Shown piece after piece: positions 27,517 through 60,692 of a DNA stretch of 64,000 nt. Origin of the DNA: an uncultured Erysipelotrichaceae bacterium (GTDB lineage: Bacteria > Bacillota_I > Bacilli_A > RF39 > UBA660); the NCBI GenBank assembly GCA_902780585.1, contig CACZGA010000001.1, positions 10,819 through 74,818 on the forward strand. The letters run 5' to 3'. The translations under genes were made by a program, and so were the position numbers. The notes beneath the pieces were generated by a model that was not told where the DNA came from, ran no database searches, and saw only the letters and a program-made list of their open reading frames with translations. Numbering within the stretch: position 1 is the first letter of the stretch; every line of letters starts with the position of its first letter.

Positions 27517-27697
27517 AGTATTAGAACACGGTATAAGAAAGATTACTTGTCCACATTGCAAAGCTAAATTACAATATGAACAAGAAGATATTCGAGAAGC
27601 AATTAAACCAGCAATACTTGGAGAAGATGAAATTTATAAATTCATAACTTGTCCAGATTGTGAAAATGAAATTATTTTAACTCCTATTAAAAAATGA
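27509..27697 (+). CDS. 62-aa zinc-ribbon protein
   Basis: CPHCKA ... CPDCEN. Confidence 0.5.
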   Translation: MIKVLEHGIRKITCPHCKAKLQYEQEDIREAIKPAILGEDEIYKFITCPDCENEIILTPIKK

Positions 27698-27810: not shown

Positions 27811-27816
27811 TAAAAT

Positions 27817-27861
27817 AAGGCTGTAATCACCGTAATTGGTGGTTATAGCCTTATTTTTTTT
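27817..27861 (+). terminator. rho-independent terminator closing the plus-strand module
   Basis: aaggctgtaatcacc / ggtggttatagcctt forms a 15-bp stem (two G-U pairs) with a 6-nt loop and is followed by T8. Confidence 0.75.
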
Positions 27862-27965
27862 CTAAGAGCTTAAAATTTTCAGGATGAATAATTTATCATC
27901 TGAAACATAAAAATCGATTGTAGACTTTCCTACATATCTTAAAATTAAAATTTTTATATAGAAAA

Positions 27966-28007
27966 GGGAAGCTGAACTATAAAGTTCAACTTCCCTTATT
28001 TTTTTTG
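27966..28007. terminator. bidirectional hairpin terminator closing the minus-strand late operon
   Basis: gggaagctgaac / gttcaacttccc forms a 12-bp stem. The single mismatch is a G-U pair in the minus-strand RNA. T-rich tracts flank both sides. It lies 37 nt past the stop of the last late gene. Confidence 0.65.
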
Positions 28008-28043: not shown

Positions 28044-31000
28044 TTAAGTTAATTCTCTTTCTCCTATTTTTCTACCAGTTAATTCTAATTTAACACTTTC
28101 CCAAACAGGTTCAGTACTTTTTCCCATACCACTAGATTTAACCATAAAATCAAATAAATCCTATTTTCCAGTTGCTGTTCTTAATACATTATTAGATAAT
28201 CTATCAGCAGATTTTATAGCAAACGGAGTCCAATCTTTACCTCTTCCAGCTATAGATTTAATAAAGTTAGCATCGTCTGTAGATATTTTTAAAGTATCAC
28301 TAGTTAAAGTTAATGCATTATTTTTGATAGCATTACCAAATCCTTTATTTCCAGTTTCTTTTACATACTATTTTACTTGTTTATCTAATGAACCTAACAT
28401 AAGATTTCCTATAAGTAACCATATTATTAAATCTACAAATAATTGTCTTAAATTAGCATTGTATAATCTTCTTAATTCAGGATCAACATTTTCATCATGT
28501 AATAGGTACCATGCTCCTTTTATTCCAGATTTAGTAGTTTGATCAGATTTTCCATTCATTGCTCTTGCCAATTCCCACATTGTAACAATTATTCCTTCTT
28601 GTGGACGTCTTTTCCAAGTTTGAACGGCTACTCCTGTATCATCTTCTGGTTTTTCAATTCTTTTTGGAATTAAATCTCCATCTTCATCTATAGTCCAACA
28701 ATATTTAATTTTTTCTCCATTTGGTCCTTCTTCTTCGTAATCTTCAAGCTTTCCTTCTTGTGTATAAGAACGAACTTGAGCATATTGATTCTTTTTAGCT
28801 GACCAATAAGTATTCATTTGCATAAACATTGCTCCTACAGTATATGAATGTAATAAAGATTTCTTTTCATGTGCATAATATCCATAAATTCTATCAGATA
28901 AAGCTTTAGCTGATTCAGATTGTTGATTAGTGTAAGCTTTTGGAAGAGCTTTAGGATTATTTATATCAAGTGTAAATAAAGTTCCATCTGAATATTTCGC
29001 TCCTTCTAATTCAAACTATCTAGCCATAGTAATATATAATGATTTTTGTTCATTATATTTTTTTAATTCTAAAGGAGAAACAGATGAATCTTTACCTTTA
29101 TATTTAGCAAATATATCGAATCTTTTATCCTTAGTCCAATCATAAACTAGTTTTCCATCAACTACTTTATAAGCTTCTAATGAACCATCTTTATGCATCT
29201 AAGCATAAAAAAGAGTCATTCTATTATAAAAATCAGGACGTGATGCAAATCTAAATCCTACTCCCCAGAAATGATAAAGTAATCCAGTATTATCTGTTTT
29301 AATTCTATCTATATAGCTATTAGCATCCATATCATTAAATCCATACTATTGATTTAATAATTCTGACATTGTAAAATCATTACCAAGATGTAATAAATCC
29401 TACATTACAATAGACCATCCTTTAAATAATCCTTCTCGTGTAAATGGATTATCATCATTATTATAATATTTTATAAATAGAGTAATGTCTTTCCATAATC
29501 CATCTATAAATTGATACCACTGTCTAGGGTTAAATGCTAAAGCTAATTTAGATGCTGTAGACATTGCTACTTTGGAAACATCAGTTACTATTTGAGATAA
29601 ACTATCATCTCTATCTTCTACAGGACGATTATGAATTCTTGTTTTAATATATGTAAGAATATATTCAATATCATTCTTAAAACTTTCATTCAGTATTCCT
29701 CCTTGCATATTTAAATGAAGTGTTAATGCTCTAAGTACTGGAAATATATTATTTAATTCATCAGCCATTTTATAAGCTGAAGTATGTTTTAATAAAAGAG
29801 TTTCAAGATTATGTTCAAAATATGCTTTTCCACCTAATCTTTCATCAGAAAGGATTTGTAACCTATATTTTTCATTTTCTTCTCCTTCTCCATCTGTAGC
29901 ATCAAAATTATTTATAGCTTCCCAAAATTCACCGTTCTTTAATTTTTCTTTATATTTATCATCGGTTACTAATCCAGTAGCATCAGCATCATATCTTCTT
30001 TTGAGTGTACTTAACATATTCTTAGGAGCTAACATAGCAAATCTAGATCTTATAAAATTAAGCCATCCGTGTCTTACGGCAACTTCAGAAGTTAAATCTC
30101 CTTTTGTTAACGGAACTCGTAAATATCGTTTTGGATTTTTCTTTATATCTTCTTCTATAGTATTAGGATTAAAATTTTTTATTCTATTATCATTAATTTT
30201 TAATAATGCAAACTTTAAGAAATCTCTTTCTTCATCAGTAAGTTCAACAGAATTATCCCAAGGATTTTTAAACAATAAATCTTCTCCACTTTCATCATAC
30301 ATATTTATATATAATGACTATACTTGATTTCCAGTTGTATATTGCTATAATTTTCCAAATCCTTTTTTCTCTTTAAGAGTTTCTACTTTTTTTCTTAATT
30401 CTTGATTAAATGCAATAACATTATCACGAACATTTTGATAAGCTTTTGTTACTTGATCTGTAAATTCATTTAATGTTTCACTCTATAATGTTCCTGGATT
30501 ATCCACCATTGTTCCAGCTATTCCTCTAAAGTTACTAAAATTTCCTCCAACTAATTGAAATTTAGCATGGTCTTCTATTTGCTGGAGTAAATTTACATCA
30601 GATAACTAAGCAATTGCATAAAGAATTTGTCTATGTAAAAGATATTCAGGATTAGAGTTTTCATCAGGAATACTAGATGTTTCCTAATTTAAATTCTTAT
30701 ATCCATAATCAAACCCGTCATTTCCTGTAAGTTTTTTATCCAATTCTATTAATTTCTATCTTAATAAAATAGGATTTGCTCCAAAATCATCTAAATCAGA
30801 AATACATCTTTTTATGTCTTGTTTAATTCCATATGCAATTTTACCTAATCCATTTTCTTCTGGACTAGCTTCTAAACATTCTTCAAAAGCAAATCTACAA
30901 GCATCAACTCTATTTACCATTCTGATTTTTCCGTTTTTTCCGTCAAAATTAAAATTATTTTTAATATTTCCTAATGAACATAATCTTTTAAAATTATATA

Positions 31001-33071
31001 ATAATTGTTCATTAGTTGCTGTTATACCCTTTTGTCCTCTAGGACTTATTACTTCAATGTTTCCAATACCTTTATTTTCAGTATTAAATAATCCTGGAAT
31101 TTCATTTAAAAGTAACATTACTTCCTATAATTCTATATTTCCACCTACTCCAGTCATAACTTGATTATTAGAATCAGAATTAACTACATCATCAGTTAAG
31201 AAAGTTCCTAATAAAGTAGTTCTATTTTTTCCAGAAAATTTAACTTTCTATGTAGGATTAAAATAATCGGAAATTCTAATTACATCAATTAATCCAGTAT
31301 ATTTATTTCTAAACATCAGTACTCCTAACTAATCAAATATAGAATCATATTTATCATCACTTATTAACTTCCATTTATTAGTGTTTGTATATTTTCCTAG
31401 TTTATCTTTAATCCAAAGAGGATTATCTTGACCAAAAGATGCTTTAGATGCAAGATTTAAAAAATCTTCTTCTGTCTCAGTATTTCCTAAAGATTTAAAA
31501 GTTTTTCTAATACTCGAAGTAGTATTTGGAACATAGTATTCTTTATATTCATATTTAGCTACTATTTTATTAAATATAATAGTTTCAGCTTCTTCTTTAG
31601 ATTTGTTACCACTAGCAACAAAATTATTTTTATTGTCTAATTTGAATTCCCAATTCTGAGTTATTTTATTCTTTTTAATACCTCCTGCTTCTTTTATCAT
31701 CTCAGCTATATCTTCTTTTGACATATTTTTTCCATTTTTCTTTATTTTAAATAAAGTTCTTGAATTTTCAGCAACTTTTGTTAATAAATCACCTGTTATA
31801 AAAGAATCTTTTTTAAAATTTCTTGGAAACACTTGTTCAAGATTATTTTCTATAGTGTTATATAAATTTCCACCTTTAGTTGCAGATGTATTAGATAATT
31901 CTTGAATTGGTTCATCCATTATAGATATTTCTGAAAATTGTACTTTTTTAGTATTATTATCAAATCCAAAGTTTTCAAATTTTAAAGGAATTATTCCTAA
32001 TCTCATTTCTTCATTAGGTTCAATTCCAATACTTTGTAATAATCTTCTATAAGCAGCCAACTAATATTTAAAGGTTAAAACTTTAGCAGGATCGTATTTA
32101 TCAAGTTCTTTAGAATAATTTGATTCAGTATAATCTTTAGGAGAACATTTAAAATCAAGTATTCCTATTCTACCATCTCTTGATACTACCATTAAGTCAA
32201 TTCTTCCTACTACTGGAAAAGCGTTAGTTCCATCCGATCCTTCTCCTATAACTTTCTTTTCAGAATAGATTACACAATCTTCTCCATAATCCTTTTTAAT
32301 ATTTTCATATATCTTAATAGCAGCTTTAATAGAAGATTTTTTTATTTCTGGAGTTATATATGGTCTAAATTTAGAATAATGAGACGTTTTTAATTTTTTT
32401 TCAAATTCTATATTTAACTAGTCTTCAGTAAGATTTTTAAATCTAATTCCTTCGTCAGTTTTAGATTTGAAGAAATCTGACATTATATTATGAATTAAAT
32501 CTCCACAAAGAGCTTGTTGTTTCCATACATCTGTCATTCTTTCTTCGATTTTATTTAAAGTATCTTCATCTGTAATCTTTTGGGGTATTCCGTTTATTTT
32601 AGGAAGTAGATCATCAACAAATGGTAATTGTGCCTATATTTTTGGATCATCATATTTACCATCTCTATATAACTGTTTCTAACCACCTGGGTTAGCTTCT
32701 GTTCCATCCCAGTAATTTTCAGCTACAAATACAGGAAATACAGGATTTCCATCAGGTCCTTTCATCTAATGAATAATATCAGTAATAGATCTATAATCTC
32801 CAGAAGCTTTAATAGGATCTAAATCTGACGGTTCTCCTTCTTCTGAAAGTTCAGTTATTTTATTTGATTTTTCTCCTTTCTCATATAAATCAGATACTTT
32901 CTCTAAAGCTTCATGAACTTGATTCTATTGTTCACTCCATTTAGAGTTTTCTGTTTTTTTAAAAGCAGCGTCTCCTAATTTATTTCTTAAATTATTATGG
33001 AATAATAAGTATTCATCTAACTCTAATTCTGAATTAAAAGTTAGTCCATTATATTTATATTTACAAGTCAT
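28044..33071 (-). CDS. late giant protein F (1675 aa, TAG read as sense) with an N-terminal RecB-family PD-(D/E)XK nuclease domain
   Basis: Track fragments 28368-28829, 29016-29198, 29400-30302, 30756-31118 and 31329-32060 share one frame, and all end at TAG. A triplet check of every gap found no in-frame TAA or TGA. The ATG at 33071 overlaps the stop of gene E (ATGA). The true stop is TAA 28044-28046. Confidence 0.85.
32040..32520 (-). other. PD-(D/E)XK nuclease motif set inside protein F
   Basis: CGDLIHNIM, GRIDLMVVSRDGRIGILDFKCS (D ... D-x-K) and TFKY[TAG]LAAYRRLL (QxxxY, with the Q encoded by TAG 32061-32063). Confidence 0.65.
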
Positions 33072-34132
33072 ATACAATTTTCAATTAATTCATTATTAGT
33101 TAATAACTCTTCCTTTACATTTGACATAATTCTGTGGATTGTTGCATCATCAATTGTTCCAGCAGAATCTATATCAAAATTAGAAGAATTTAATCTAGAA
33201 GCTAAGTTCAATAAAGAATTCTAAAATAAATTATCAATAGTTTTTACACTAACTTCTCCAAATATTATAGAATCTATATCTCTTTTTATATTATACATTA
33301 CATAATTCATTATATTTTTATCAGCTGAATCAAATAAACTTGGCTAATTAGTTAAAAATTTTGCTAATTCCTTTACAAAAATTTCTTCTTGAATATCAGA
33401 CATAGTTCTATTCGGATAAGATTTAGCCTAAAGTTCAAAATTTGGTAATTGCTAAACTTGTGATACTAATGAAAAATATAAATCTGGATTATTATATCTT
33501 ATAGATCCCAAAAATAAATGAAGTTGTTCATGTATAGGAGCATCTACTGTAGCTATGTCTGTATTTATATAGATATTTCCATTATATATAAATGCTTCAA
33601 GCTAGTGTACTGGTAAATTCTAAAATTCTGGATCTGAAGATAACTATTCGCTAGTTATCGGAATCATATTTATTCCATAATATTTCTATAATCTATCTAA
33701 GGCATCTTCGATTATTATAGAATTATTTGATTCGTCAAAATCTATATCTCTATTTACTTCTAAAATATCAGTGTACTCGGTAGGTCTATGTTTTATATCT
33801 ATTAAAACAGAATCTCCAATTTGAGTAAAATGTACTTCTAAATCTTTATATTCATTATTTATTTTTGAAGTAGCTTCCTCTATAGATTTAGAATTAGTTA
33901 GTTTTAATATATCCTAAGCTAGGACGTATTCACTATTTCCTTCTTTTCTAATTTTTAATTTATCTCTTAGATAAGGTTCTGAATTAGCTTCAGGAATCTC
34001 ATCTAATTCTGGCATTCTTCCGTTTTCTTCTTCAAAACCTCTAATAAAAGAATAAGAGGAAAATTCCGAAAGACCAGACATCTTTTTTAATGTCTGGCCT
34101 CTCTAAGAATTTTTTACTTCACAATAATTCAT
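33068..34132 (-). CDS. late protein E (354 aa) with an HExxH zincin-like motif
   Basis: Frame verified triplet by triplet. It has 10 in-frame TAGs and ATGA overlaps at both ends. The motif context is NGNIYINTDIATVDAPIHEQLHLFLGS. Confidence 0.8.
33518..33532 (-). other. HEQLH (HExxH) motif
   Basis: cat gaa caa ctt cat in the frame of protein E. Confidence 0.5.
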
Positions 34133-37100
34133 GGGCAATCTTTTACAGTATTATCATGTAATATAGCATCTAAATAATATTTAATTTTTTCTAAGTCATA
34201 TTTTCCATTTTTTCTTGGAAATATTTTAGAAGGAGTTATTTTTTCATCAGATGATTTTTCCTTAGCCATTTGTATTATCTAATTTACTGTATAGGACTTT
34301 TCTCCTTCATTTACTACTAAATCTTTTAATGGTTTATTAGTAATTTTATAATTTCCAACTTCCAATATATCTACTTCATTAGAATCATCAAAATTATTTT
34401 CTAATCCAATCATTACATATCCAGCATCGTTCATTTTCTTTATAAATGATTCTCCCTAAAAGTCATCTTCATTTCCTTCATCATTATCTGGATCTGGGTC
34501 AGGTGAATTGTCATCATTATAATCATTAGAATTATTATTTGATTCATTCTATTTTTTATATCCAAGATATGTTTTTTTATCTTCTGGATTAGTTACATAA
34601 ATCCAAGGAATTTTTAGATTAGGAGTTACTTCATAAGGTTTTAATAACGGAGCTATTGCTTTTATTATTTCATCTTGATTTTCTAAACTTACTGTATCAG
34701 ATTTTCCCCATTTTACTATAAAATCATTATAATCTTTTATAACATCTAATCTATTAGCTTTAATTAAATCTTCGAATAAAGAGGTTAAGGATAACTATCC
34801 TGGCTAATTATTATATGCTAATAAATTATAATAAAACATATATTCTATATATTTAGTAGGAAGTAATGATAAATCATACTTAGCTAAATCAAATTGAACT
34901 ACATCTGAAGGATTACTCATATCATTAGTTTTTATTTTAGCTAAATTTATAGAAGTATTATGGTCTGGATTATAATCATAACTTCTATATCCTAAATACT
35001 AAATAAATCTATTACTAGGATATTTTTTCTTTAATTCTGGGAATACTATATACTACATATATTCCTTAAATTTCTAATCGTCTTTCTCATTAATTCCTAA
35101 CTATATAGTCTATGGTCTACCTTCAGTATATACTAATTTTCCATTTACAATTTTAAATTTAGGAACATTTATAATTTTAATATTCTATTCTTGTAAAAAT
35201 TCCTAATGCATTTTTCTATATATAAATGGATTTATATTCCTTCTTATTTGAGATAAATGAGTAGTTTTTCTAGTATTCATCTAAGGAATTATAGAATCTT
35301 CTATTAATCTAGTAGCTCTGTATAACTATGAAGATTTAGAACCCATCCTTACTACAGCATTAGCTAACTTAAGGTAAGTTTGATAATTATCAACAGTATC
35401 AGCTACTTTTAGTATATTTGTAGTAGATTTTATTTTTCCATAAATACTTTTAGCAAGTTTATTATAATCTTTATCATATAAGAATGTATGTAAGTCTAAA
35501 TAATAAGATTCATTAGATTTGATTATTCCCTATTCTCTTAATTTATCATTATACTATTTGAGTTGGTCTAATTCTGTTAAAACTTCAGAATAATACTTTT
35601 CTAAACGAGTACTTCCAATTAAATCTAACCTATTAGAAATAATTTTTGAAAAATTAGTATAGAATGTTATCTAATCTTCTATTTTATTAGGTAATCCTTG
35701 ATTAAGTGCCATTAATGGACGTAACTAACTTTGTTCTTCAGCTATCTCCGCCAATCTAGATAATTGATTGATTATTTTATGTTGTTCTCCATCATAACCT
35801 TCTATTAAATCATTATCTATAACATTCTAATTACTTAACCAATTATATATACTTTTAATTTGTCCTAAATATCTTTTAGAAGAAAATATTAATCCTTGTA
35901 TAGCTTTTAACTAATCTTCAAATTTAGTATTCTAACTTTCATTAAATGATTTATCGAACTCTACTATTTTATCTAAACTTTGTTCTCCAAAATCTCTATA
36001 GTCTTTCCAAGCCTAGATTTCATCTAATACTTGTTGTTTCTATTGTTGTTTAGCTAATAAATCATTATAAGATTTTTCCTAGTCTTCTGTTCTATTTTCT
36101 ATTGAAGATAATTCATTTAAATAATTTTCAGCTCTTCTTGAGAATTTTCTATATTCTTTCTTGGTTTTAAGAGTAGCTATAATATTATTAATTAACTAAT
36201 CTTTATCTTGTTTTAAAATAGAACTTTCTGCATTAGGAGTTTGTAAGAATTTAAATATTGATAACATCTAATCTCTAAGATGCGGATTAGCAATTTTATT
36301 AGCTAAGTTACTTTTATTGATTTCCTCATTCTCTTGATAAATACCTAATTTAACAAATAAAGGTTTAAGAGTTTTTAATTGAGTATCAGTCAAATTTATA
36401 ACAGGAGGAACCTATAACTCTCTAATTATATCCAATATTCGAGTTCTGGCTTTCTATTCATTAAATACATTTCCATCAGATAATCTTGTTAACAACAATC
36501 CAGTATCAGATAATATTAAACGAGCTAGTTCTTCTACAGAATATCCTAAAATAACTCCAGCATTATATAAAGATAACATTTTAGGTCCACAATTTAACTA
36601 AGGTAATTTTGGATCTTTAGCATTATCAGTACTTAAAGAAAGTAATCCAGATTTACTAAGATATTCATCACGATACTAATTTACTTTTCTTAATGCTTTT
36701 AATACATCTTCATCTTTAATAGTATCTTCATTTCTAACTCGAACATTAGCCAACATATTTACTTCTCTTCCATTTATTATTACTCTAAAAAGTAAATCTT
36801 TCTAATCTTCAGCTGTTCCTTCTTCTAAAACTTGATAATTATATTGACTACTTATTTCAAAATTCTTTAACGAAGACGCTTCAATACCTACACCTTCCTT
36901 ACCTCCTAGTGTTAAAGTAAGCATTTTAATTTTAGAATATACAGAACCTCTATCGAATTTTTTAACGAATCCAGATAATTTCTAAAATTCAGGATGAGCT
37001 TTTTCATCATCCACAAGAGTTTTTATTTTATCCATCTAAGGATCAATAGGAGCTTGTGCCTAAATCCTATTAATAGGATCTTTAGAAATATCCTTAGCTT

Positions 37101-44973: not shown

Positions 44974-44974
44974 A

Positions 44975-50900: not shown

Positions 50901-53900
50901 TCAAGTTTCTAAGCATTAAAACTATTTCTTTTTTCTTCAATAGACTAGAGTAAATCTTTATCTTCAGTTAATTCATCCTATTCTAATTCTAAAATATCTA
51001 ATATTTTCTATTTATCATCATCAGAAAGGTTATTAAATTCTTCTATAGTCTATGGTAATTCAATTCCAATTGCTTCTTCCCATGTTTTACTAAGATTTTC
51101 AAGCTATATTTTAAAATTATCATATATAGTTTTATCAAGATTATCTTTAGAAGCTTCTAATAATGCAGTCCATATTCCAGCTCGGGTTTCTGCAGGAATA
51201 AATTCTTCTGTATCCTATACAATATTTTTTGATCTAGATAACTATACTTCTTTTTCATTTAAAAATATATTTTCTAGTTCTCTGAGTGGATTTATTTCCT
51301 TGTCAGTAAAATATGTTTCTTCATATTTCTTTAAAAGATTAGAAAAAGCTTGTTGATTATGTTTAAATACCTGATAATTTCTATGTATCATATCTCTACG
51401 AGTTAATGAACTTTCAGCCCAATCTTCTCTAAGCTTCTTCATTCTTTCTTCAGAAATTTCATTAAATTTTTTTCCTTCTACTGCCTCAGCCCAAATATCA
51501 AATCCAGTTAAAGCATACGCAGATGAAATTGGAACAGTCATTTCAAATAAAGATTCTGCTATAAACTCATTAGCCATAGTACCATCTTTATACATAGTTA
51601 ATTTTTTATCCAACTTCTTTTTCTATTCATTTAATTCTTTTAATTCTTCTTCGTTCTATTTAGTCCAATTCTTTTTAGCTTCTCTATTCTATTCATCTGT
51701 TCCTACTTGGCCATTTTTCTACTTTTCTAAAGTATTTATTTTCTAACTAACATCAACATACTCAGATAATAGATTATTAAATTCATTAGTATATACTCCT
51801 AAAACATTACTATTTAATAATGAATAATATTTAAGTTGTTTTCTAACTAATCCATCAAGTAATTCATTATCAGAAATTTTAAATTTCATTCCTTCTGAAT
51901 TTAAAATTTCTTCTACCATATTTACTTGTTCTAACAGTCTTTGTTTTATAGCATAATCCTAACTTTCTTCATAAGTATTAGCTGGTTTATATATTTTTTC
52001 TCCATCAGAAGTTTCTAATTGCTAAGTTGATAAAGAAGTACTACCGAACGTCATTTTATTAATAGTATCTTTATATTCCTAAGCTTGTCCATTCTATACT
52101 AAATTTACAAGTTTTATAAATGCATCTGAATTAGACCCAGGATTATTGACAGATTCTACTAATTCTCTCTATGCAACTCTAGCTTGTCTATAGCCAGGAA
52201 GTCCTGTAGCTAATCCTCCTCCTACAAGACCTCCTATTGCAGACATAGAATATCTAGTTGCCATGTTTTCCCAAACATCAGTAAATTTAGTATCATCACC
52301 TCTTAATGTATTAACAATATTAAAAATACTTTTAGCTGCATCAGCAAGTAATTCTTCAGAAGTTTCTTCTGTTGCTTCACTTAACATTCCAGAAACAGTC
52401 ATTTTACTTGTATTAGTAAGCACTGAATCAGAATAATCCTATTTAGCTAATTGTTTTCCATAATCAAATAACTTCTAAAACCATTTTTTCTTTACTTCTG
52501 GATCTTTATTTAGATTTTCACCTGATTCTCTTGTAATTTTAGCTAACGAACGTGCTATAGTTTGATTTTGAAATTTTTCCATTTTTAATTCTGGAAGAAT
52601 CCATTTACCAATATCACTTCTTAAAATCTACCATTCTCCTAATGAATAACCTAAAGCAAACAAAGCAGCCTCCGTATCAGATGCCCCTTGTTGTTTAGCT
52701 TCTCCATAAGAATCTGCTGTAGTAATTCCAGTCATATAAGCCATAGATATATTTTTACTTATGTTCTATCCTGCTTTTAGACGTTCATTTAACTTAGTTT
52801 CTGCTGTTGCAAAGCGTATTGTTTTTTCAGTATTTAATTTAGAAAATAATTCGGCCTAAGTTTTTGCTGGTCTTACTAAATCTACATTAAAAGGTTCACT
52901 TTCAGCTAATTTATTTATTAATTCTTTTCTTGCAGTATTAGCATCTGTTCCTTCTCCTATTAATTTAGGATTAACTCTTGAAAACAATGCATTTCCATAT
53001 TTAAATATCCAACGCTATTCTGCAAGTTGTGTAAATACATCAGAGATAAGTTTTAATCCAGTTTCCATTGTCCAAGGGTTAGCCTATATATTAGCTTCTT
53101 CTGAACCCTAAGTATAATCAGAAGTAGAAAATGAAAAAGTTTTATTTAATGCTTCTATATAGGACATCGCCTCATTATCATTACCAGTAAATATTTTACC
53201 TATAGTTGGGAAAAGTTGCATTAAACTAAGTCCTACTCTTGTTCCTATATAAATTGGAGAAACATAAGGAACGAAAGCTGGAGCAATTTGTGCAACAGCT
53301 CTACTTAAACTTCCAAAGGTAGATTTTTCTCTATCATCAGAATCGAAGAAATCATATTTATTCCATTTAGATCCATCTTCTGTAAGTGTATCAAATCCTG
53401 ATAAAACTTCTCTTCCGTATATATCTCTTCCTCCAAGAGTTTCATAATAATAAGTACCAGTAGTTGGATCTATTTTCTTTTCTCCTTTATGATAAACTAT
53501 TTCATCTTTATTGTTAGTAGGATTTCCATTTTCATCAGCATCAAAATCCCATTGTGCAAGAACTTTAGGATTTATAAAATTATCTAACCAATTAGAATTA
53601 GGACTTTCTATCCATTTTCCTGTTTTATAATCATAAACTGGTTTAGATTCTGCTATTTCTCTTAAAGATTTAGTTGGATCTTCTTTTATTCCAAAATTAA
53701 TAAATCCTTCTTGCTATCTTAAAGGATTAGCTACTTTTTTTATATTAAATTCAGGATTAATTGGATTTCCTTGTTCATCTACAGAAGAACTTTTTAATGT
53801 TGAAGGAGCAAATATATCATCTCTAAAAAATATATTATCAGAGTCTGTTAAATCCGATAAAGTATTAAACTAATGTAATGCCTATTCATAAGCATTATTG

Positions 53901-54088
53901 AATTTTTTTTCATCAAATTTTCCATCTGTCTAGAAAATAGGAAGATTTTGAATTGTCTGAGAATTTTTATATTTTTCCTTATCTTGTATCATAGTATTCG
54001 AAGAATTTAGTCCAACCAACTAAAAATCTTTAGGATTAAAAGTTGGATTGGACAATAATTCTAAGAAATAATCATGTTCTTTCATCAT
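44975..54088 (-). CDS. late giant protein C (3037 aa) with a central SF1 helicase/ATPase core and Gly-rich hydrophobic segments
   Basis: Track fragments from 47069-47641 up to 52169-52423 share one frame, and all end at TAG. All gaps checked triplet by triplet. ATGATG at 54088 overlaps the stop of gene B. The stop is TAA 44975-44977, 1 nt before the ATG of gene D. Confidence 0.85.
48518..49627 (-). other. SF1 (RecD/Pif1-like) helicase core inside protein C, about residues 1488-1857
   Basis: Walker A GDPGSGKS (49604-49627), Walker B LVFFDEVS, motif III AAGDFN[TAG]L, motif V SAGASQGQEG and motif VI YTALSRAKQG (48518-48541), all in the canonical order. Confidence 0.75.
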
Positions 54089-57000
54089 AATACTAATTCA
54101 TTCTTTTTATAAGTAGATATTTTCTACTTATCATATCCTTTTTGTTTCAATTCTAAATCTGTAGCATCAGTCATTGAAATTTTCTATCCGCTACTAATAG
54201 CTCCTGCTACTAAACTATTTTTTATTGGAACAAATACTGTTCCTTGATATAACTCTTCTTTACCTCCAAATATGGGTAATCCACTATCTAATGAATATTT
54301 CTTATCATTAAATTTATTTTGAATTATATTTTCATAAAATTCTCTAGTTTGTTCATCAGCAGGTTCTAATATATCTAAAATTACTTTTTTATCATTAAGT
54401 GCTTTTTCTGTAGTAGTTACCTAAAATGCTGCAAATCTATTCCACGACTACTTATTTAGATTCCCTTGATTATCATATTTAGGAGGTAACTATAATTTAG
54501 AACAAATTTCATTTACTTTCTACCAATTCTATGAAGAATCTTCTATTCCTTCTATTAATAATCGATCATCTAACTATTCTAATTTTTTTAACATTTCAAA
54601 ATCAGGAGTATTTTTATCTCCTATTTTAGTTGGTAAATCTACTCCTACTACTTCTCCATTGTTTAATATTATATAATTATAAGCAGTTGGATTTAATGTA
54701 GATCCTCCAAGTGTAGCTTTATTCCAATCTAAAACTCCTTTTAATGTAGAAGTTGATGCTTCCTACATAGTAATTCCTGCTCCCATATTTTCTCCACTAT
54801 GTTTCTAAAATTCAGAATATCTAGCTTTTACGTTTATTGCATAGTTACTTCCAGTATTTAATTCTATATTTGTATTATATCCTTTTCCTGTAATTAATGC
54901 AGATGCTGCATCTAATTTTAATCCTTCTGAATTTTCTTTTGAATTTCCATTAGTATCTTTAGCAGCTTTTCCAGTTAAAGGAGAGAAACTAACAGTCTAA
55001 GAATCATCTATTTGAGAAGATAAGAATGTAGGAATAAGATTTTTTGCTCCGCCATGTATATCTAACACTGCTTTATAATTTTCTGGCAACATTTGCGTAA
55101 TATAATTTATAGCTGCCTACTTCTAAGCTAATTGATTTTTAGTTTCAGTAGTTGTTTTATAATACCCATCTGGAGCTCCTTGTAACAATTTTATTCCTTG
55201 TTTAATCTAATTAGATTCCACTTCAGACATTCCATCAAGTTTAAGTTCACTACTACCTAATTTTCCAGCCATTGATTTAACCTGTTCAGCAATTTTCAAA
55301 AGTCCTACACCATTAGCAACAACATTTTGCATAATATAATCACCTTTATCAAATGCTAAATCAGGTCTATATTCTCTAAGTGTTAATAGTTGAGAATTAG
55401 TTAAAGGAATATGTTTAGAAGTATCAATTTTACTAACAGTTTCAATTTTTCCTGTTTCTTTATTCTATACAGCATAATTTCCAACAGAATCAACTGCTAT
55501 TTCATTTAATGCTCCATTAGCAGCAGCTACTTTATAAGCTTCATCATAAATTTCTTTACTTCTACTAACATTATTTAATTGCTACATAGCTCTCAAATAC
55601 ATACTAGCAATCTACTAAGAATTTAATTCTTTTCCAAATATTTCAGCTTCTTGTAAAACACCGCTTAATGTAGAGTAAATACTACTTACATCAACTTTAA
55701 CTCCTTTAAGATCTTTAAACATCTTAATTAAATCAAGTACATCTTTTGATGAAGTATCTTTACTAGATGATGTAGCTTTTGAGGATGTTCCTATAGAATC
55801 TTGACTAACTGTTCTAGCAGTTTCACTTACTCCAACAGCAGGAGTATATATAGTAAACGGAGCTAAGAACTGTCCTCCAACTTGATATTTTCTTCTTCTA
55901 GTCCCATCTGGATGTGGAGCTAATGGCTATATTTTTCTTTCTTTTTCAGGATAACGTCTACACATCTTTCTAAAGTGGTCTACAACATCTTTAGTAGATT
56001 TATATAGAAGTTTATCGTCCTTTTTATATGTTATTTTAGAACCAGATTTTACAAATAATAATGGAAATGAACTAGAATATTTTCTATTAATATCTCTGTA
56101 ATTTCTTAAATTTTCTAACTATATTCTTGTTTGTACTTTTTTAAGTTTTTCTTTAGCTTCTTTAACTCTTGGGTCACTTTCATTCCACAATCCATTTTCT
56201 CCACGAAGAGCATATAATTCATCAGTTGCTTTTTTTAATTCTGGATCATTTTCTAACTAAGTTTGATAAGTAAGTAAATCAATCTATTTATTATAAGCAT
56301 TATCTTCTTCCATCTACTATCTCTTACGAGTTTCGATTTCCTTAAGATAATTATCAATAGATGACCACTATGCGGAATGTTTCTAAGCCAATAAAGTATG
56401 TTTTTTTTCATTAGCATCATTTAATGAAGCTAAATTAGTATTGGCTACTTCTGTTGCTCTTTGGGTATTAGCCCATTGATGTTGATTAGATTCATCAGAA
56501 GTTCTACGAATTTCTTGATTATCAGCTAAGTCACCTTGTGCTCTGAGTTCATCTCCAACTCTTCTGGCTTCTTGCATATAAGCCATCTATCTATCAGCAT
56601 CAGAAGTAAATGGTTGAGCAGCTTTTGTCTATCCAGCAGCTGCTCTTCTGTAATATGCTTGTTTAGTAGCCTCATCACCAACAACTTGTCTATGTGTATA
56701 ATAAGGCTAAATTAAAGTAGGTCTAATTCCCTTTAAAGCTTCATCATATACTCTAGCATTATTAATAAGATTTCCAGCAAGTCTTCCTGTAGATAATAAT
56801 CCAGGAATCATTCCTCTTAGTCTTCCTAATAAATCATTTCCTTGTGGAGTTTCTTTTTTATCTCCTGTTGGACCACTTCCTATTTCTGTACTTCCTCCAG
56901 TTTGTTGAGGCTAAGGATTTAGTTTTTGTAGAGTTTCTGAAGGAGGATTATTAGGAGATTCCTATAACGGAAGTCTTTTTAATTTATAATATCCATCTGA

Positions 57001-57555
57001 ATCATCTAAATATGTATCCCATCCTCTTTTATTGAGTTCTTGTTTCCAATTTCTAAATTCTTGTGAATTTTCATCCCAATCCCCTTTTCTACCAAGAAGT
57101 CTTCTCCAATCAGTTACACTACTATATAATCCATCTGCAACATATTTCTAACTTGGATTATCTCCAGATAATCTTTTTCCTGGAGCAGTAAAGACATTAT
57201 TATTATAGGCATTAGCAATACCTAGATTATTATAATTAAAATAATCCTCTTCGTTTATCTAAGTACCCTAATTATTGGAATTTCCTAAATAATCATTTTG
57301 GTACTTTTTAACACTTTCATTAGAATAGGCTTTTTTCTTCCAAGCCTCATTTGCTCCTCCAGCTGCATTATAAATTTGTGAATGAGAATGTTGCATATCA
57401 TTCAACCAATATCCATAATCATTTTTTTCACCATATTTAGATAACATATCTAATATATGTTGTGACTATTTACTATGAACATATTTATACCAATCTGAAG
57501 TTGTACGACCTATTCCAGTATTTCCCCCATATTGAAATCTAGGAATAATTTTCAT
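54085..57555 (-). CDS. late large protein B (1156 aa), function unknown
   Basis: Every row from 57555 to 54085 was translated: 35 in-frame TAGs and no TAA or TGA. ATGA overlaps at both ends. Includes track fragment 56383-56586. Confidence 0.85.
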
Positions 57556-60332
57556 TTCTTTATAAATTCTTTATATTGTTGTATTCTTTGTTTATCTAAT
57601 CTTCCACCTTGTTTAAGCCAACCTTTTCGTTTAAAATCTTGAAGAATTTTTCCCAATTCAGTATTTCCTATTTTTACAGGAGAATTAGGTTTAATATTTC
57701 TTCTATTATTATTTATTATATCCCTTATTTTAGTCTATAATTCTTTCTATTGAGATTTTAAATAATTTCCTTCAATATTTCCCTTATAAATTAGATTAAA
57801 AGTTCCATCAGACTATTCAACAATTTGTAACTAGTGTCCATCAATGTTAGCACTTCCACTCTTTAATTTATTTTTAGAAAATTCTCCTCTAGATAATTTT
57901 TCTTCTCTATTTTTTACATATTCGTTATATTTTTGAATTCTTTCTTTAGACTACTTACTTATTTCTGAATTTTTTTCATTATTTCCAGAAGTTTCATTAG
58001 CTTTAGGAGTTTCAGACTATTGTTCTGTTGTTGGTTTTACTGAATTATTTCCTAAATATTTATCATATCTTCTAATATCACGATTACTTCCATTGAAGAA
58101 TTTTTTTAACCATGTATTATTATGTTCTGACAAATATTGCTCAAATTCTTCATCTGACTTTAATGCTGAAGAATTTCTTGTAGTAGTTGTTGGAGTTCCA
58201 AATATTTCAGAATTTCCTTTTCCTCTGTATCTATTTAAATTTTCTCTACTCCAAGTTTTAGTACTAGTAGATTTAGACTATATTTTATATCCTTCAGGAA
58301 TTTCTATTTCTAAATCTTTAGCTTTAGCTTCTAAATCCTCTGCTTTAGTTTTACTTAAAATTTTCTATTTTTCTTTATCTATAGGAATTTCTATAGTTTC
58401 TACTTTGCCATCTTCTCCAGTTTTCTACACTTTTAAAGTAGGAGCTGTTTCTGTAGAAGAAGTTGTTTTTGCTTTAGTTCTAGTAATTCCTGATTTATTT
58501 AATAAAGAATTAGAAGTTTCGATTCCTCTAGCTTTCATAGCAGATCTTTCAACTCTATTTCCTCTATTCAATTGATGATGTCCTAATCCTCCAATAAAGA
58601 AATATGCTAAATCCTAATAATCCTTAAGAGATAAATCTTCTCCTTTTTTAATTTTTTCTACAGTATCAAGAGCTCCTGGAGCATTAGCTGCCATAGCATA
58701 AGTAGATCCAGCTCTTCCAGCAAGTCTTATATATTTTTCTATTTTTGGAAGATATCCAGCTAGCTTAGAAGCAGCCCAACCTCCTTTTATCCATCCACCT
58801 GCTATTGGAATAGTACTCAATAATCCTAGACCGTGATCTAAGGCAGCCCAACCGGTATCTCCCCAAGTCCATCCTTCAGGATCAGATGCCCTATTATAAT
58901 CACGAATTCCAGCAGCTATTTGAGATAGTCCAGCAGAGCTAAATCCTTCTGGATCAACAGCTGCTCCTAAATCAAATAATAATGCAGCTACTTCTCTCTA
59001 TTCAGCAGGAGTAAATCCTCCTTCTGTAGAGTTTAAATAATTTTGTTGCTATTTATTTTTTAAAACATCAGGATTATTCTAATCTAAAATATCCTAAAAA
59101 TTTACTCCATTATTCTATTGTCCTTTAGCATAAGGTTTAACAATTTGATTTGTTAAAGAATCCCAATAAATTCCATTTAATTCTCTGATTTTCTTAAATC
59201 TATTAGGATTACTTCCAAATCTAGGACCGAATGTAGCTAGTTCTTCTTTAGAAAGATTTTCTAAAGCATTATTTCTTTGTGCAAGTTTAAATGTTCCTAC
59301 TAATTGTGATAATTCATCGCCATTCCATGAATCTTTAGCAGCTAACTAATTTAAATAATCTAAATTACTATTTTCAGGAGAAAGTGGACTTCCAGTTAAT
59401 CCTTTACCATACCATTTTAATCCTCCAATAAGATTAGCATTATATGCTTTTCTTGCTGCTTCTGCTTTAGCATTAGCAGCCTATATTTTAGCATCTTTCT
59501 AAGCTTGTAATCCTCTATAGTAATTACCATAAGTTATTGGATTTCCTTGTTCATCAGTAGTATAAACTTCACCAGTTCTATTGTTAAACCAATCCTTATA
59601 GTTTATTCCAAGTTTATTTAAGGCAGGTGTATCATCATCAAGTTCTGGACTTCTCAATGCTCTTACAGCTTCTCCTAATCTAGATTTAAAGTCATCAGCA
59701 TCCTTAAAAGGACTATCTTTCCAATTATATTCTTCTGCATTAAAATCTCTGTCTATACCTTCTAAATACTTAGCAAGAGCCTCTTTTCTTTTATCTGTTC
59801 CAACAGCTCCCGTTTTTTCATTACGAACATCATCTAATGTATTCCAACGATTCATATCAAAGGTTTTTCCATCAAATGCTTGTCCGCCAAATTCTTTATC
59901 TGATATATTTTTATAAAGAGTGCTTAAAAATGAATTGCTATCGAACGTAGGTAATTTAGCAATTCTTTCTTCTTCCTCCTTCTTTTTCTTCTCTTCAATA
60001 GATTTTTTAGTTGGTAATGACTCAGCTAATCTTCCAATAAAACTAGCTGCATCTTGCCAACCTCTTCTTGTATTTTTATCATATGTATTAATATCAAATG
60101 GATCTCCACCAAATGTAGTATAATACATAGATTCTCCAGTATCTGGATTTGTATATTTTCTAGTCCCTAAAATTCCTCTATTTAGAGCTAATTCTATAAC
60201 TGCATCAAAAGCACCTCTACGAGCAGCTGACCAGGGTTGGGTACTAGAATAAGCTTTATAATCTCCTATAGCTTTTAACAAATCCTATTTACTAACCTAT
60301 TCATCACCAAAATTAATGTATTCTTCTTCCAT
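57552..60332 (-). CDS. late large protein A (926 aa) with a Gly-rich hydrophobic segment (GLGLLSTIPIAGGWIKGGWAASKLAG); possible ejection or membrane-active protein
   Basis: ATG 60332 to TGA 57552-57554. Joins track fragments 59499-60281 and 58614-58820. Fully translated by hand with 20 in-frame TAGs. Confidence 0.85.
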
Positions 60333-60338: not shown

Positions 60339-60379
60339 AAAATATAAAAGGGTAACACGACTTGCGTGTCGTATTACCC
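60339..60379 (-). terminator. rho-independent terminator (or attenuator) between the Ala/Pro/Gln-rich mini-gene and gene A
   Basis: The minus-strand RNA GGGUAAUACGAC-ACGCAA-GUCGUGUUACCC forms a 12-bp stem (one G-U pair) and is followed by UUUUAUAUUUU. It ends only 7 nt before the ATG of gene A. Confidence 0.7.
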
Positions 60380-60386
60380 TTGTAAA

Positions 60387-60692
60387 TTACTTGTTTTCCC
60401 AACGAACTAATCTTCCACCCTTACGATAAACAGGTGCTTGACCTTCGGGTGCTGCAGGAGCAGGTTCACCACCTCCTTGAGCAAGCTCAACAAGTGCTTG
60501 ACATACTTGTAAAGCTAATTGAGCATCTTGTGTTTGAACTGCCTGAGCAGCAGCCATTACAATCTATTCTAAAGGATCTCCACCTTGTTCAGGTGCTTGT
60601 TCAGGAGCTGGAGCAGCTTCAGGAGCAGGTGCTCCAGCTGGAATTTCTCCACCTTCTTGTAATTTTAAAAATTTTCTGTCAGTAATTTTCAT
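60387..60692 (-). CDS. 101-aa Ala/Pro/Gln/Glu-rich low-complexity protein, locally GC-rich
   Basis: MKITDRKFLKLQEGGEIPAGAPAPEAAPAPEQAPEQGGDPLE[TAG]IVMAAAQAVQTQDAQLALQVCQALVELAQGGGEPAPAAPEGQAPVYRKGGRLVRWENK. Frame checked. Has its own upstream spacer and downstream terminator. Confidence 0.7.

What the first reader, a model, noticed from the sequence alone, without database searches (positions are those of the whole stretch)
28044..60332. Six translationally coupled late genes encode about 10,760 residues, including 3037-aa and 3614-aa proteins
Genes A through F (926, 1156, 3037, 3614, 354 and 1675 aa) fill 32.3 kb with no intergenic space. Four junctions (A/B, B/C, D/E and E/F) are ATGA stop-start overlaps, and C/D is TAA-T-ATG. 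The block begins right after a terminator hairpin and ends at the bidirectional terminator at the strand switch. Giant late proteins next to the replication module are typical of the virion cargo/RNAP block of crAss-like phages. Here the set also carries helicase, nuclease and zincin signatures. Proteins A and C contain Gly-rich hydrophobic stretches of the kind seen in ejection proteins.
Basis: partly seen in the sequence, partly recalled or inferred. Interest (0 to 1): 0.75.

Follow-up and report, generated by a model that had tools for sequence, protein, structure and literature searches.

The report
TAG-recoded crAss-like virion RNA polymerase block
This is the giant-protein "transcription/cargo" gene block of a very divergent, roughly 174-kb crAss-like gut phage that reads TAG as glutamine; its 3,614-residue protein is a homolog of the crAss-like virion RNA polymerase, so it is a new member of a known kind, not a new kind of system.

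Summary
With TAG read as a sense codon, six back-to-back minus-strand genes (926, 1156, 3037, 3614, 354 and 1675 aa; 10,762 residues) fill 28044-60332. Four junctions are ATGA overlaps, and terminator-like hairpins sit at both ends.

Protein D is a homolog of the two-barrel virion RNA polymerase of crAss-like phages (phi14:2 gp66). Profile-profile comparison gives 98% probability and E about 1e-14. The motifs GSDYDIDK, bridge-helix GGKxGVGI and trigger-loop TDNAKD align in order, and D has a roughly 510-aa lineage-specific insertion.

- C has a conserved SF1-helicase-like P-loop module.
- F has a PD-(D/E)XK nuclease domain and a conserved hydrophobic helix.
- E has only an HExxH motif.

The genome is crAss-like. 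The window's own contig carries a crAss_MUZ muzzle gene just upstream of the block, and the primase matches only crAss-like phages. A contig of 174 kb fits the "Zeta" group.

Virion packaging and ejection are inferred by analogy with phi14:2 and PhiCrAss001; they are not shown here. Structure prediction of the catalytic region could not be run.

Verdict: a real, well-read feature and a new member of a known kind. Interest is moderate to low.

The parts
57552..60332 (-). Gene A, 926 aa (20 in-frame TAG). Conserved family of about 885-967 aa with no known domain; by position it may be a cargo or ejection protein.
   Evidence: ORF and start. 41 homologous clusters, none with a Pfam domain, and the exact sequence (P0038) on a 174,238-bp contig. 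No Pfam or PHROG hit.
54085..57555 (-). Gene B, 1156 aa (35 TAG). The C-terminal half (residues 645-1156, window 54088-55623) is conserved as the roughly 600-aa protein that precedes C in distant relatives.
   Evidence: BLASTP to the upstream proteins of L001, L003 and L005 gives 26-61% identity. No Pfam or PHROG hit.
44975..54088 (-). Gene C, 3037 aa (73 TAG). Giant protein with an SF1-helicase-like P-loop NTPase module.
   Evidence: Orthologs of 2780-3216 aa in four loci.
48089..49831 (-). C residues 1420-2000: SF1-helicase-like module. Walker A GDPGSGKS at 49604-49627, Walker B VFFDEV at 49277-49300, and motif III GDFNQ, whose invariant Q is TAG-encoded.
   Evidence: The motifs are invariant in 5 of 5 orthologs. 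Pfam AAA_30 and AAA_19 hit 5 of 5 members (best E 8.7e-9) and Viral_helicase1 hits 4 of 5; the window protein itself scores 18.4 bits, below the 27-bit cut-off. The best PDB profile hits are Upf1/NAM7, E 0.03-0.08. Coordinates.
34129..44973 (-). Gene D, 3614 aa (96 TAG). Homolog of the crAss-like two-barrel virion RNA polymerase (phi14:2 gp66 family).
   Evidence: 35 full-length homologs and 223 representatives at 50% clustering. hhalign against a profile of 9 crAss RNAPs gives 98.1%, E 6.5e-14, while controls give 1.2% or less.
39661..41307 (-). D residues 1223-1771: region homologous to gp66 682-1273 (first double-psi beta-barrel plus Connector).
   Evidence: hhalign 95.9%, E 6e-9. hmmsearch local match to gp66 1118-1239, which is the Connector (1095-1238 per 10.1101/2020.03.07.982082).
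38119..39651 (-). D residues 1775-2285: a roughly 510-aa insertion between the Connector and the catalytic barrel, with no counterpart in classical crAss RNAPs.
   Evidence: No hhalign match for D 1750-2300. Lower conservation within the family.
36343..38109 (-). D residues 2289-2877: catalytic double-psi beta-barrel, bridge-helix and trigger-loop region. RTPAQSQQSF at 38020-38049, GSDYDIDK at 37918-37941, GGKEGVGIEA at 36877-36906, STDNAKDP at 36610-36633.
   Evidence: hhalign to gp66 1300-1730: 98.3%, E 1.7e-14. The motifs are invariant in the family. All nine crAss RNAPs carry a matching motif, GSDFD(I/V)DK in seven, with variants GSDLDVDK in cr111_1 and GFDFDIDK in DAC15. AF2 of homolog P0036 predicts a 41-residue helix over the GGKEGVGIEA motif. 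Coordinates.
33068..34132 (-). Gene E, 354 aa (10 TAG). Small conserved protein with HEQLH (33518-33532) and a downstream QEE; a possible zincin-like metalloprotease.
   Evidence: HExxH is present in 4 of 5 orthologs and lost in L005. No Pfam, PDB or gp65 profile match.
28044..33071 (-). Gene F, 1675 aa (21 TAG). N-terminal PD-(D/E)XK nuclease domain (residues 187-380, window 31932-32513) and a conserved hydrophobic helix (residues 1544-1562, window 28386-28442).
   Evidence: Pfam PF12705: E 6.7e-7, 29.9 bits, cut-off 22. D...D/N-x-K and QxxxY are conserved. PDDEXK_1 is also on record for the orthologs in L001, L003 and L005. Hydrophobic helix.
60348..60381 (-). Terminator-like hairpin (14-bp stem plus T-run) immediately upstream of gene A.
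27964..27997 (-). Terminator-like hairpin 47 nt downstream of the stop codon of F.
27812..27857 (.). 20-bp hairpin flanked by an A-run and a T-run at the convergence of the two strands; a candidate bidirectional terminator.
   Evidence: the GC-skew sign change at about 28 kb is.

Best explanation
The six genes are the 'transcription/cargo' block of a highly divergent crAss-like phage. The genome is about 174 kb and is most compatible with the Zeta group.

Proposed mechanism:
- The block is translated only once TAG is decoded as glutamine, so it is middle/late expression.
- Its products, about 1.2 MDa for one copy of each, are packaged in the capsid as cargo.
- At the next infection they are ejected through the muzzle-tipped tail ahead of or together with the DNA.
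- D, a single-chain two-barrel RNA polymerase, then transcribes the standard-code early genes on the opposite strand.
- The SF1-helicase-like module of C and the PD-(D/E)XK nuclease of F probably act on DNA beside the polymerase.
- E may be a processing protease.
- A, B and the hydrophobic helix of F may help form or pass the ejection channel.

Shown here: the gene structure, TAG = Gln, D's homology to the gp66 RNAP family with its catalytic, bridge-helix and trigger-loop motifs, the C and F domains, conservation of the block, and the crAss-like lineage.

Inferred: packaging, ejection, early-gene transcription, and the roles of A, B, C, E and F.
For: Gene structure.

TAG = Gln:
- 255 TAG against 17 CAG in the block, while early genes use CAG normally.
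- At the window's TAG sites the orthologs have CAA or CAG in 29%, 18% and 9% of cases, against backgrounds of 3.4%, 3.8% and 1.6%.
- Nearly invariant Q2340 of the catalytic barrel and the invariant Q of helicase motif III are TAG-encoded.

D is an RNAP:
- Colinear hmmsearch hits to the gp66 Connector, DFDID barrel and trigger loop; hhalign also aligns the bridge-helix motif.
- hhalign against gp66 alone, E 5.9e-5.
- Profile-profile 98.1-98.4%, E 6.5e-14 to 8.4e-15, with negative controls at 1.2% or less.
- Both halves map separately.
- Direct BLAST hits between classical crAss RNAPs and family representatives at the catalytic barrel.
- Top BFVD fold hits are crAss-like proteins, though weak.

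Block conservation: B-C-D-E-F followed by a strand switch in four loci at 24-65% identity.

Lineage:
- crAss_MUZ and crAss_MUZ_C upstream on the window's own contig.
- Primase hits in 146 records, all crAss-like or closely related.
- A 174,238-bp contig, against 145-192 kb for the Zeta group (PMC7886860).

Precedent for packaging and function:
- phi14:2 gp65, gp66 and gp67 are virion proteins, and gp66 transcribes early genes (10.1101/2020.03.07.982082).
- PhiCrAss001 gp45-gp50 are cargo detected by mass spectrometry (PMC10172136).
Against: - There is no proteomic or transcript evidence for this phage.
- The structural test was inconclusive. AF2 was possible only on TAG-free or surrogate fragments (pLDDT 61 and 70.5), and Foldseek against the PDB found nothing, best E 0.69.
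- HMMER-level searches of D against Pfam, PHROGs and the PDB are empty.
- A, B, C, E and F show no significant similarity to the phi14:2 or other crAss flanking proteins, so their orthology to gp65, gp67 or gp45-gp50 is positional only.
- The HExxH of E is lost in one abundant lineage.
- No suppressor tRNA is present in the window.
- TerL, MCP and portal lie outside the window and were not examined, so the Zeta assignment rests on genome size and general features.
Confidence: 0.8

Rival explanations
1. The block encodes an intracellular (non-virion) transcription and DNA-processing machine. D would be a middle/late phage RNA polymerase working with a helicase and a nuclease inside the infected cell, and none of the proteins would be packaged.
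For: The polymerase, helicase-like and nuclease domains would also suit an intracellular complex. The early module encodes its own sigma-70 factor, which shows that this phage has more than one way to direct transcription. There are no proteomics.
Against: Every characterised member of the gp66 family is a virion protein (annotation; 10.1101/2020.03.07.982082; PMC10172136). The block sits directly after the muzzle, SLT and small structural-type genes in the TAG-recoded late region. Early genes lack TAG recoding, as expected if they must be expressed before any phage-made factor exists.
Confidence: 0.12
2. The giant proteins are purely structural (tail fibre, tape measure or decoration proteins) or an N4-type (T7-like single-subunit) virion RNA polymerase, and the DxDxD motif is fortuitous.
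For: Their size is similar to the N4 vRNAP (about 3,500 aa). There are no Pfam or PHROG hits.
Against: Profile-profile homology covers about 550 plus 590 residues and includes four functional motifs in the correct order. The motifs are invariant across a family of 223 representatives. No T7-like RNAP family hit was found.
Confidence: 0.03
3. The long ORFs are an artefact: TAG is a real stop and many small products are made, or the contig is chimeric.
For: Table 11 gives only short ORFs. No suppressor tRNA is found in the window.
Against: Sequence conservation runs through the TAG positions in orthologs that are 24-65% identical. TAG aligns with CAA or CAG far above background. Invariant catalytic-site glutamines are TAG-encoded. 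The chance of such open frames is about 1e-108. The same gene order occurs on independent contigs from different samples. Composition is uniform across the block.
Confidence: 0.02

Closest known systems
Cellulophaga phage phi14:2 gp65-gp66-gp67 (GenBank gp076, gp077, gp078): virion RNA polymerase and its two flanking virion proteins
   Same: - D is homologous to gp66 over the first barrel plus Connector, and over the catalytic barrel, bridge helix and trigger loop.
- The RNAP is flanked by very large genes.
- The block ends at a strand switch facing the replication genes.
- An HExxH-bearing protein lies immediately downstream of the RNAP: gp65 has HEIMH at residue 245, E has HEQLH at residue 201.
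   Different: - D is 3,614 aa against 2,180 aa, and has a roughly 510-aa insertion between the Connector and the catalytic barrel.
- Its N- and C-terminal regions of about 1,200 and 740 aa are unmatched within the compared gp66 segment (residues 659-1878).
- C, E and F are not detectably similar to gp67 or gp65.
- The phi14:2 proteins have no Walker A motif.
- phi14:2 uses the standard code.
PhiCrAss001 gp44 (muzzle), gp45 and gp46 (cargo), gp47, gp49 and gp50 (RNAP-associated cargo) (PMC10172136)
   Same: - The order is muzzle gene, then smaller proteins, then a run of very large RNAP-associated proteins.
- The muzzle protein hits the crAss_MUZ Pfam families.
   Different: - Additional genes (417 aa, 430 aa, DUF192, SLT, 90 aa, 101 aa) lie between the muzzle gene and A.
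- Orthology of A and B to gp45 and gp46 was not tested against PhiCrAss001 sequences.
- gp46 homologs are reported missing in the Zeta group (PMC10172136).
- The proteins are larger here, and the block is TAG-recoded.
Zeta-group crAss-like phages (Yutin et al. 2021, PMC7886860)
   Same: - Genome size: a 174-kb contig against the reported 145-192 kb.
- TAG recoding is confined to the late genes.
- There is a rich replication and nucleotide-metabolism module (NrdD, ligase, PolA).
- Almost no BLAST-detectable homologs among known phages.
[quoted passage not shown]
   Different: - Group membership was not tested phylogenetically, because TerL, MCP and portal are outside the window.
- The RNAP ORF here is intact, whereas Zeta RNAP ORFs were reported as heavily disrupted by stop codons and frameshifts.
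- No introns or inteins were detected in this block.
Suoliviridae giant RNAP-containing CDSs (cr4_1 about 4,490 aa, cr10_1 about 4,460 aa, cr50_1 about 4,774 aa)
   Same: - They contain the same RNAP core, carrying GSDFDIDK.
- The proteins are of comparable or larger size.
- cr50_1 carries a Walker-A module that aligns weakly with C's helicase module (20.8%, E 1e-3).
   Different: In cr50_1 the P-loop module is fused downstream of the RNAP in the same polypeptide. Here it lies in the separate upstream protein C.
N4-like (Schitoviridae) giant virion RNA polymerase and ejection proteins
   Same: A functional analogy only: a polymerase of about 3,500 aa is packaged and ejected to transcribe early genes (PMC13434306 abstract).
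   Different: The N4 vRNAP is a T7-like single-subunit enzyme (from general knowledge). D belongs to the two-barrel class, so the two are not homologous.

Membership tests
crAss-like virion RNA polymerase (phi14:2 gp66 family, two-barrel RNAP) | Catalytic Asp triad DxDxD in the motif GSDFD(I/V)DK of the second barrel | tested here: met
   D has GSDYDIDK at residues 2345-2352. The three Asp are invariant in the 16-sequence core alignment. All 9 classical crAss RNAPs carry a matching motif: GSDFD(I/V)DK in seven, with variants GSDLDVDK and GFDFDIDK.
crAss-like virion RNA polymerase (phi14:2 gp66 family, two-barrel RNAP) | Sequence homology over the first barrel plus Connector, and over the catalytic barrel, bridge helix and trigger loop | tested here: met
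   hhalign gives 95.9% (E 6e-9) and 98.3% (E 1.7e-14) for the two halves, and 98.1% for the whole core, with controls at 1.2% or less.
crAss-like virion RNA polymerase (phi14:2 gp66 family, two-barrel RNAP) | Two double-psi beta-barrel folds seen in a structure | tested here: inconclusive
The D 1455-1701 fragment gave pLDDT 61. The P0036 model (pLDDT 70.5) lacks the barrels. Foldseek against the PDB gave a best E of 0.69. The top BFVD hits are crAss-like proteins, but TM-scores are about 0.25.
crAss-like virion RNA polymerase (phi14:2 gp66 family, two-barrel RNAP) | Present in virions; transcribes early genes; Mg-dependent RNA synthesis | not testable with these tools
   This needs virion mass spectrometry, in vitro transcription and infection time courses.
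crAss-like phages (Crassvirales and allied Zeta/Epsilon groups) | Crassvirus muzzle tail protein | tested here: met
   On the window's own contig, the gene ending about 4.6 kb upstream of A (just beyond the window's end) encodes a protein of more than 1,806 aa that hits PF25731 crAss_MUZ and, weakly, PF25729 crAss_MUZ_C.
crAss-like phages (Crassvirales and allied Zeta/Epsilon groups) | crAss-type DnaG-family primase in the replication block | tested here: met
   The primase (1005-2003) hits phrog_12622 at E 1.5e-47. tblastn finds 146 phage records, all crAss-like or close relatives.
crAss-like phages (Crassvirales and allied Zeta/Epsilon groups) | TerL, MCP and portal phylogeny, plus IHF and the genes 74, 75, 77 and 86 signature | not tested
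   These genes lie outside the 64-kb window, and only 10-kb flanks of related contigs could be fetched.
Zeta group of crAss-like phages | Genome of 145-192 kb, late-gene stop-codon recoding, and clustering in the TerL tree | tested here: inconclusive
   The contig of 174,238 bp and the TAG recoding of late genes only fit. The TerL clade was not tested.
Code-15-type recoding (TAG read as Gln) of phage late genes | ORFs are open only if TAG is sense; TAG corresponds to Gln codons in orthologs; early genes use the standard code | tested here: met
   Four plus-strand genes end in TAG.
Code-15-type recoding (TAG read as Gln) of phage late genes | Phage-encoded suppressor tRNA (anticodon CUA) | tested here: not met
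   ARAGORN finds no tRNA in the window and Rfam finds none. The remaining roughly 110 kb of the genome could not be searched, and host-encoded or missing suppressors are documented for such phages (PMC7886860).
SF1 helicase (protein C, residues about 1420-2000) | Walker A, Walker B, motif III GDxxQ, and a second RecA-like domain | tested here: met
   The motifs are invariant in 5 of 5 orthologs. AAA_30 and AAA_19 hit 5 of 5 members (best E 8.7e-9), although the window protein scores 18.4 bits, below the 27-bit cut-off. Upf1/NAM7 matches in both halves are weak, E 0.03-0.08. Helicase activity was not tested.
PD-(D/E)XK nuclease (protein F, residues 187-380) | Pfam PF12705 above its gathering score; conserved D...(D/E)xK core | tested here: met
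   29.9 bits against a cut-off of 22. The core GRIDL...ILDFK and QxxxY are conserved; L004 has N-x-R.
Zincin-like metalloprotease (protein E) | HExxH plus a third ligand within a zincin fold | tested here: inconclusive
   HEQLH is present in 4 of 5 orthologs and is IELIP in L005; a QEE lies downstream. There is no Pfam, PDB or gp65 profile match.
N4-like T7-type virion RNA polymerase | T7-like single-subunit RNAP domain | tested here: not met
   No Pfam RNAP family hit was found in any of the six proteins. D matches the two-barrel class instead.

The most novel reading that the evidence does not exclude
In this clade the ejected polymerase may work as part of a co-packaged DNA-opening machine. 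In vitro, phi14:2 gp66 transcribes only single-stranded or denatured DNA (10.1101/2020.03.07.982082). The conserved SF1-helicase module of C and the PD-(D/E)XK nuclease of F always flank the RNAP, and a helicase-like module is fused to the RNAP in cr50_1. They could nick and unwind the incoming genome to give D a single-stranded template. The roughly 510-aa insertion between the Connector and the catalytic barrel could be the docking site. This would explain how crAss-like virion RNAPs initiate on double-stranded DNA, which is an open question.
Probability: 0.2. Interest if true: 0.6.

Novelty: new member of a known kind. Interest (0 to 1): 0.3.

Why it matters
The result gives a clean, uninterrupted example of the transcription/cargo block from the least understood and most divergent branch of crAss-like gut phages, where RNAP ORFs were previously reported as badly fragmented. 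It maps the polymerase's functional elements onto a 3,614-aa protein. It defines a family of at least 223 clusters (50% identity) that standard annotation (Pfam, PHROGs, PDB) misses entirely. It also shows that a helicase-like protein and a nuclease-bearing protein are constant partners of the polymerase in this clade. In practice, it shows that such contigs must be translated with TAG = Gln to be annotated at all. It does not reveal a new kind of system.

Tried and rejected
- megablast of 24 kb of the block against GenBank phages: no match.
- Pfam and PHROGs on all six proteins: only PD-(D/E)XK in F.
- phmmer of D against the PDB: nothing.
- IMG/VR scan with a D fragment: nothing.
- Profile of the catalytic core against the PDB, and a per-member PHROGs scan at E up to 1: no consistent hit.
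- hhalign of the C, E and F families against all phi14:2 block proteins, and against the proteins downstream of the RNAP in six other crAss-like phages plus phi14:2 gp65: not significant.
- DNA polymerase tblastn: a widespread PolA, uninformative for lineage.
- Exact-match search for the window's contig in the viral and metagenome collections: not found.
- Search for a repeated early-promoter motif in the plus-strand module: only chance repeats.
- Literature search for accession MT835470: nothing.
- Considered and rejected: an N4-type polymerase, tail-fibre or tape-measure proteins, an assembly chimera, and TGA or TAA recoding.

Full report
OBSERVATION

With the standard bacterial code, the region 28-60 kb holds only short ORFs. 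GC skew flips sign at about 28 kb, which points to minus-strand genes from there on. Re-scanning with each stop codon recoded in turn shows that only TAG-as-sense restores long frames. It does so on the minus strand only, while the plus-strand half of the window is unchanged.

They contain 255 in-frame TAG codons and end in TGA or TAA. Four junctions are ATGA overlaps and one is TAA-T-ATG. At 27% GC an open frame of 3,614 codons has a chance probability of about 1e-108. An independent gene caller reports the same 926, 1156 and 3037-aa products on the window's own contig. Terminator-like hairpins lie just upstream of A (60381..60348), just downstream of F (27997..27964) and at the strand switch (27812..27857, flanked by A and T runs).

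GENETIC CODE

TAG almost replaces CAG in the block (255 TAG, 17 CAG), whereas the plus-strand genes use CAG normally, and four of them end in TAG. I also ran a codon-level test that does not depend on how any database translated TAG. At the window's TAG sites, the aligned codon in three orthologous loci is CAA or CAG in 29%, 18% and 9% of cases, against backgrounds of 3.4%, 3.8% and 1.6%. Two conserved glutamines are TAG-encoded: nearly invariant Q2340 in the catalytic barrel of D, and the invariant Q of helicase motif III (GDFNQ) in C. No tRNA or Rfam family is present in the window, so the suppressor is encoded elsewhere in the genome or by the host.

WHAT D IS

Pfam, PHROGs and the PDB give nothing at HMMER level. 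D nevertheless has 35 full-length homologs of 2,100-3,860 aa on contigs of up to 362 kb. An exhaustive search with a family fragment finds 223 representatives at 50% clustering.

The family alignment shows a nearly invariant R-x-P-A-Q-S-x-Q-S-F-M ... Q-G-S-D-Y-D-I-D-K stretch. A family HMM searched against the phi14:2 virion block gives colinear local matches to gp66 only. They fall on the Connector (gp66 1118-1239), on the DFDID barrel (1314-1374) and, within a longer third match (gp66 1588-1789), on the trigger-loop VDNAKD. hhalign also aligns the bridge-helix GGKSGVGI. The element boundaries are taken from 10.1101/2020.03.07.982082.

I then built a profile from nine classical crAss-like RNAPs fetched from GenBank. 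Profile-profile comparison gives 98.1% probability and E 6.5e-14 for the D core, and 98.4% and E 8.4e-15 for the catalytic core alone. The C, E and F families serve as negative controls and give 1.2% or less.

The two halves map separately:
- D 1223-1771 matches gp66 682-1273 (first barrel plus Connector): 95.9%, E 6e-9.
- D 2289-2877 matches gp66 1300-1730 (catalytic barrel, bridge helix, trigger loop): 98.3%, E 1.7e-14.
- D 1775-2285 is an insertion with no counterpart.

Direct BLAST hits between classical crAss RNAPs and many family representatives fall on the catalytic barrel.

The structural test was inconclusive. The D 1455-1701 fragment gave pLDDT 61. A 549-aa database homolog (P0036) gave pLDDT 70.5, with a confident 41-residue helix over the bridge-helix motif. 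Foldseek against the PDB found nothing. Against the viral library the top matches are crAss-like phage proteins, but only weakly: E 1.8e-3 and TM-score about 0.25.

THE OTHER FIVE PROTEINS

The order [B-like, about 600-1150 aa] - [C, 2780-3216 aa] - [D] - [E, 311-894 aa] - [F, about 1570-1670 aa] - strand switch is kept in four loci whose proteins are 24-65% identical to the window's. All four loci are TAG-recoded.

- C has an invariant Walker A, Walker B and GDxxQ motif III. All five orthologs hit the SF1-type families AAA_30 and AAA_19, and four hit Viral_helicase1. The window protein itself is below Pfam's cut-off. The best, weak PDB profile hits are Upf1-type SF1 helicases.
- F passes Pfam's threshold for PD-(D/E)XK, has a conserved catalytic core, and carries the only strong hydrophobic helix of the block, which is conserved in its hydrophobic character.
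- E has HExxH in four of five orthologs and nothing else detectable. phi14:2 gp65 and the cr4_1 downstream protein also carry HExxH right after the RNAP, but the profiles do not align. This link is therefore positional.
- A is a conserved family of about 900 aa with no known domain.
- The C-terminal half of B is the conserved part.
- None of A, B, C, E or F is detectably similar to the phi14:2 flanking proteins.

LINEAGE

- The exact sequence of A occurs on a 174,238-bp contig.
- On another copy of the window's own contig, the gene ending about 4.6 kb upstream of A encodes a protein of more than 1,806 aa. It hits the Pfam families crAss_MUZ and crAss_MUZ_C, the crassvirus muzzle (PhiCrAss001 gp44). 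It is followed by genes of 417 and 430 aa, DUF192, an SLT transglycosylase, two small ORFs, then A, B and C.
- The primase finds 146 phage records, all crAss-like or close relatives. The gp66 core finds an almost identical set of 145.
- The plus-strand half is a replication and nucleotide-metabolism module: primase, exonucleases, NrdD, ATP-dependent ligase and PolA.
- Taken together (a genome of about 174 kb, recoding confined to late genes, almost no BLAST-level relatives, and a rich replication module), these features match the description of the Zeta group (PMC7886860). TerL, MCP and portal were not available, so that assignment is provisional.

MECHANISM

By homology and synteny with phi14:2 and PhiCrAss001, the most likely function is as follows. 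In phi14:2, gp65-gp67 are virion proteins and gp66 transcribes early genes. In PhiCrAss001, gp45-gp50 were detected in virions by mass spectrometry, and are proposed to be stored in capsid and tail cargo zones and ejected partly unfolded (PMC10172136).

The block's products are made in the middle/late phase, once TAG is decoded as Gln. They are packaged and ejected at the next infection. D then transcribes the standard-code early genes. The split in coding fits this model: early genes must be translatable by the naive host, while the cargo genes are not.

The roles proposed for C (unwinding), F (nicking or degradation, and membrane contact through its helix), E (processing) and A and B (channel or ejection) are inferences.

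NOVELTY

Blocks of several giant multidomain proteins, one bearing DxDxD and sometimes with a PD-(D/E)XK domain, are described for crAss-like phages (PMC7886860). RNAP-containing CDSs of 4,460-4,774 aa exist in the Suoliviridae. In cr50_1 a P-loop module is fused to the RNAP.

The finding is therefore a new member of a known kind. Its particular features are the intact 3,614-aa RNAP ORF with a roughly 510-aa insertion, the constant helicase-like and nuclease partners, and a family that standard annotation libraries do not detect.

Noticed in passing
window 18321-19037 (+): The early/replication module encodes a complete sigma-70-family factor (regions 2, 3 and 4; phrog_351 at E 2.5e-61). This is unusual beside a phage-encoded virion RNAP. 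It suggests that middle/late transcription redirects the host RNA polymerase.
   Followed up: partly
window 1-27400 (+) versus 28044-63715 (-): The two strands use different codes. Four plus-strand genes end in TAG (3058-3333, 6525-8021, 10356-10595, 24128-24454). Every minus-strand gene, including the three upstream of the block (430, 220 and 244 aa), has in-frame TAG codons. No tRNA or suppressor is present in the 64 kb.
   Followed up: partly
window 38119-39651 (-), D residues 1775-2285: A roughly 510-aa insertion between the Connector and the catalytic barrel of the RNAP has no counterpart in classical crAss-like RNAPs. Its function is unknown.
   Followed up: partly
L005 18991-19926 (E ortholog; its D cluster P0023 has 979 member sequences): The HExxH motif of E is replaced by IELIP in this apparently abundant lineage. 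If E is a metalloprotease, its catalysis is dispensable there.
   Followed up: no
Proteins P0097, P0100, P0105, P0106, P0114 and others; P0037: About 36 representatives of the D family are only 900-1,300 aa long and begin shortly before the bridge-helix region. This suggests lineages in which the RNAP is split into two genes. P0037 ends inside the catalytic motif (GSDFDKQQC), which recalls the disrupted Zeta-group RNAP ORFs reported by Yutin et al.
   Followed up: no
L001 (ENA contig of 361,774 bp): The closest syntenic relative sits on a contig about twice the size of the other contigs of the clade (134-184 kb). It could be a concatemer or mis-assembly rather than a 362-kb genome. This was not checked.
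   Followed up: no
window 61055-62454 (-) and 60387-61062 (-): An SLT lytic transglycosylase (244 aa) and a DUF192 protein (220 aa) lie just upstream of the block. They are followed by two small ORFs (90 and 101 aa) before the hairpin that precedes A. The transglycosylase may be the peptidoglycan-cutting component of the ejection apparatus.
   Followed up: partly
window 10672-12879 (+): An anaerobic ribonucleotide reductase (NrdD with an ATP-cone; E 7e-78) is consistent with an obligately anaerobic (gut or rumen) host.
   Followed up: no
window 26820-26862 and 27544-27586 (+): Two copies of a C-P-H-C-containing repeat (72% identical over 43 nt) lie at the end of the early module. They are possibly paralogous small zinc-ribbon proteins.
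   Followed up: no
P0036 model, residues about 20-105 (corresponding to D about 2460-2545): The small alpha/beta domain after the catalytic barrel gives weak GNAT-acetyltransferase-like fold matches (Foldseek probability up to 0.63, E 0.7). This is probably not meaningful.
   Followed up: no
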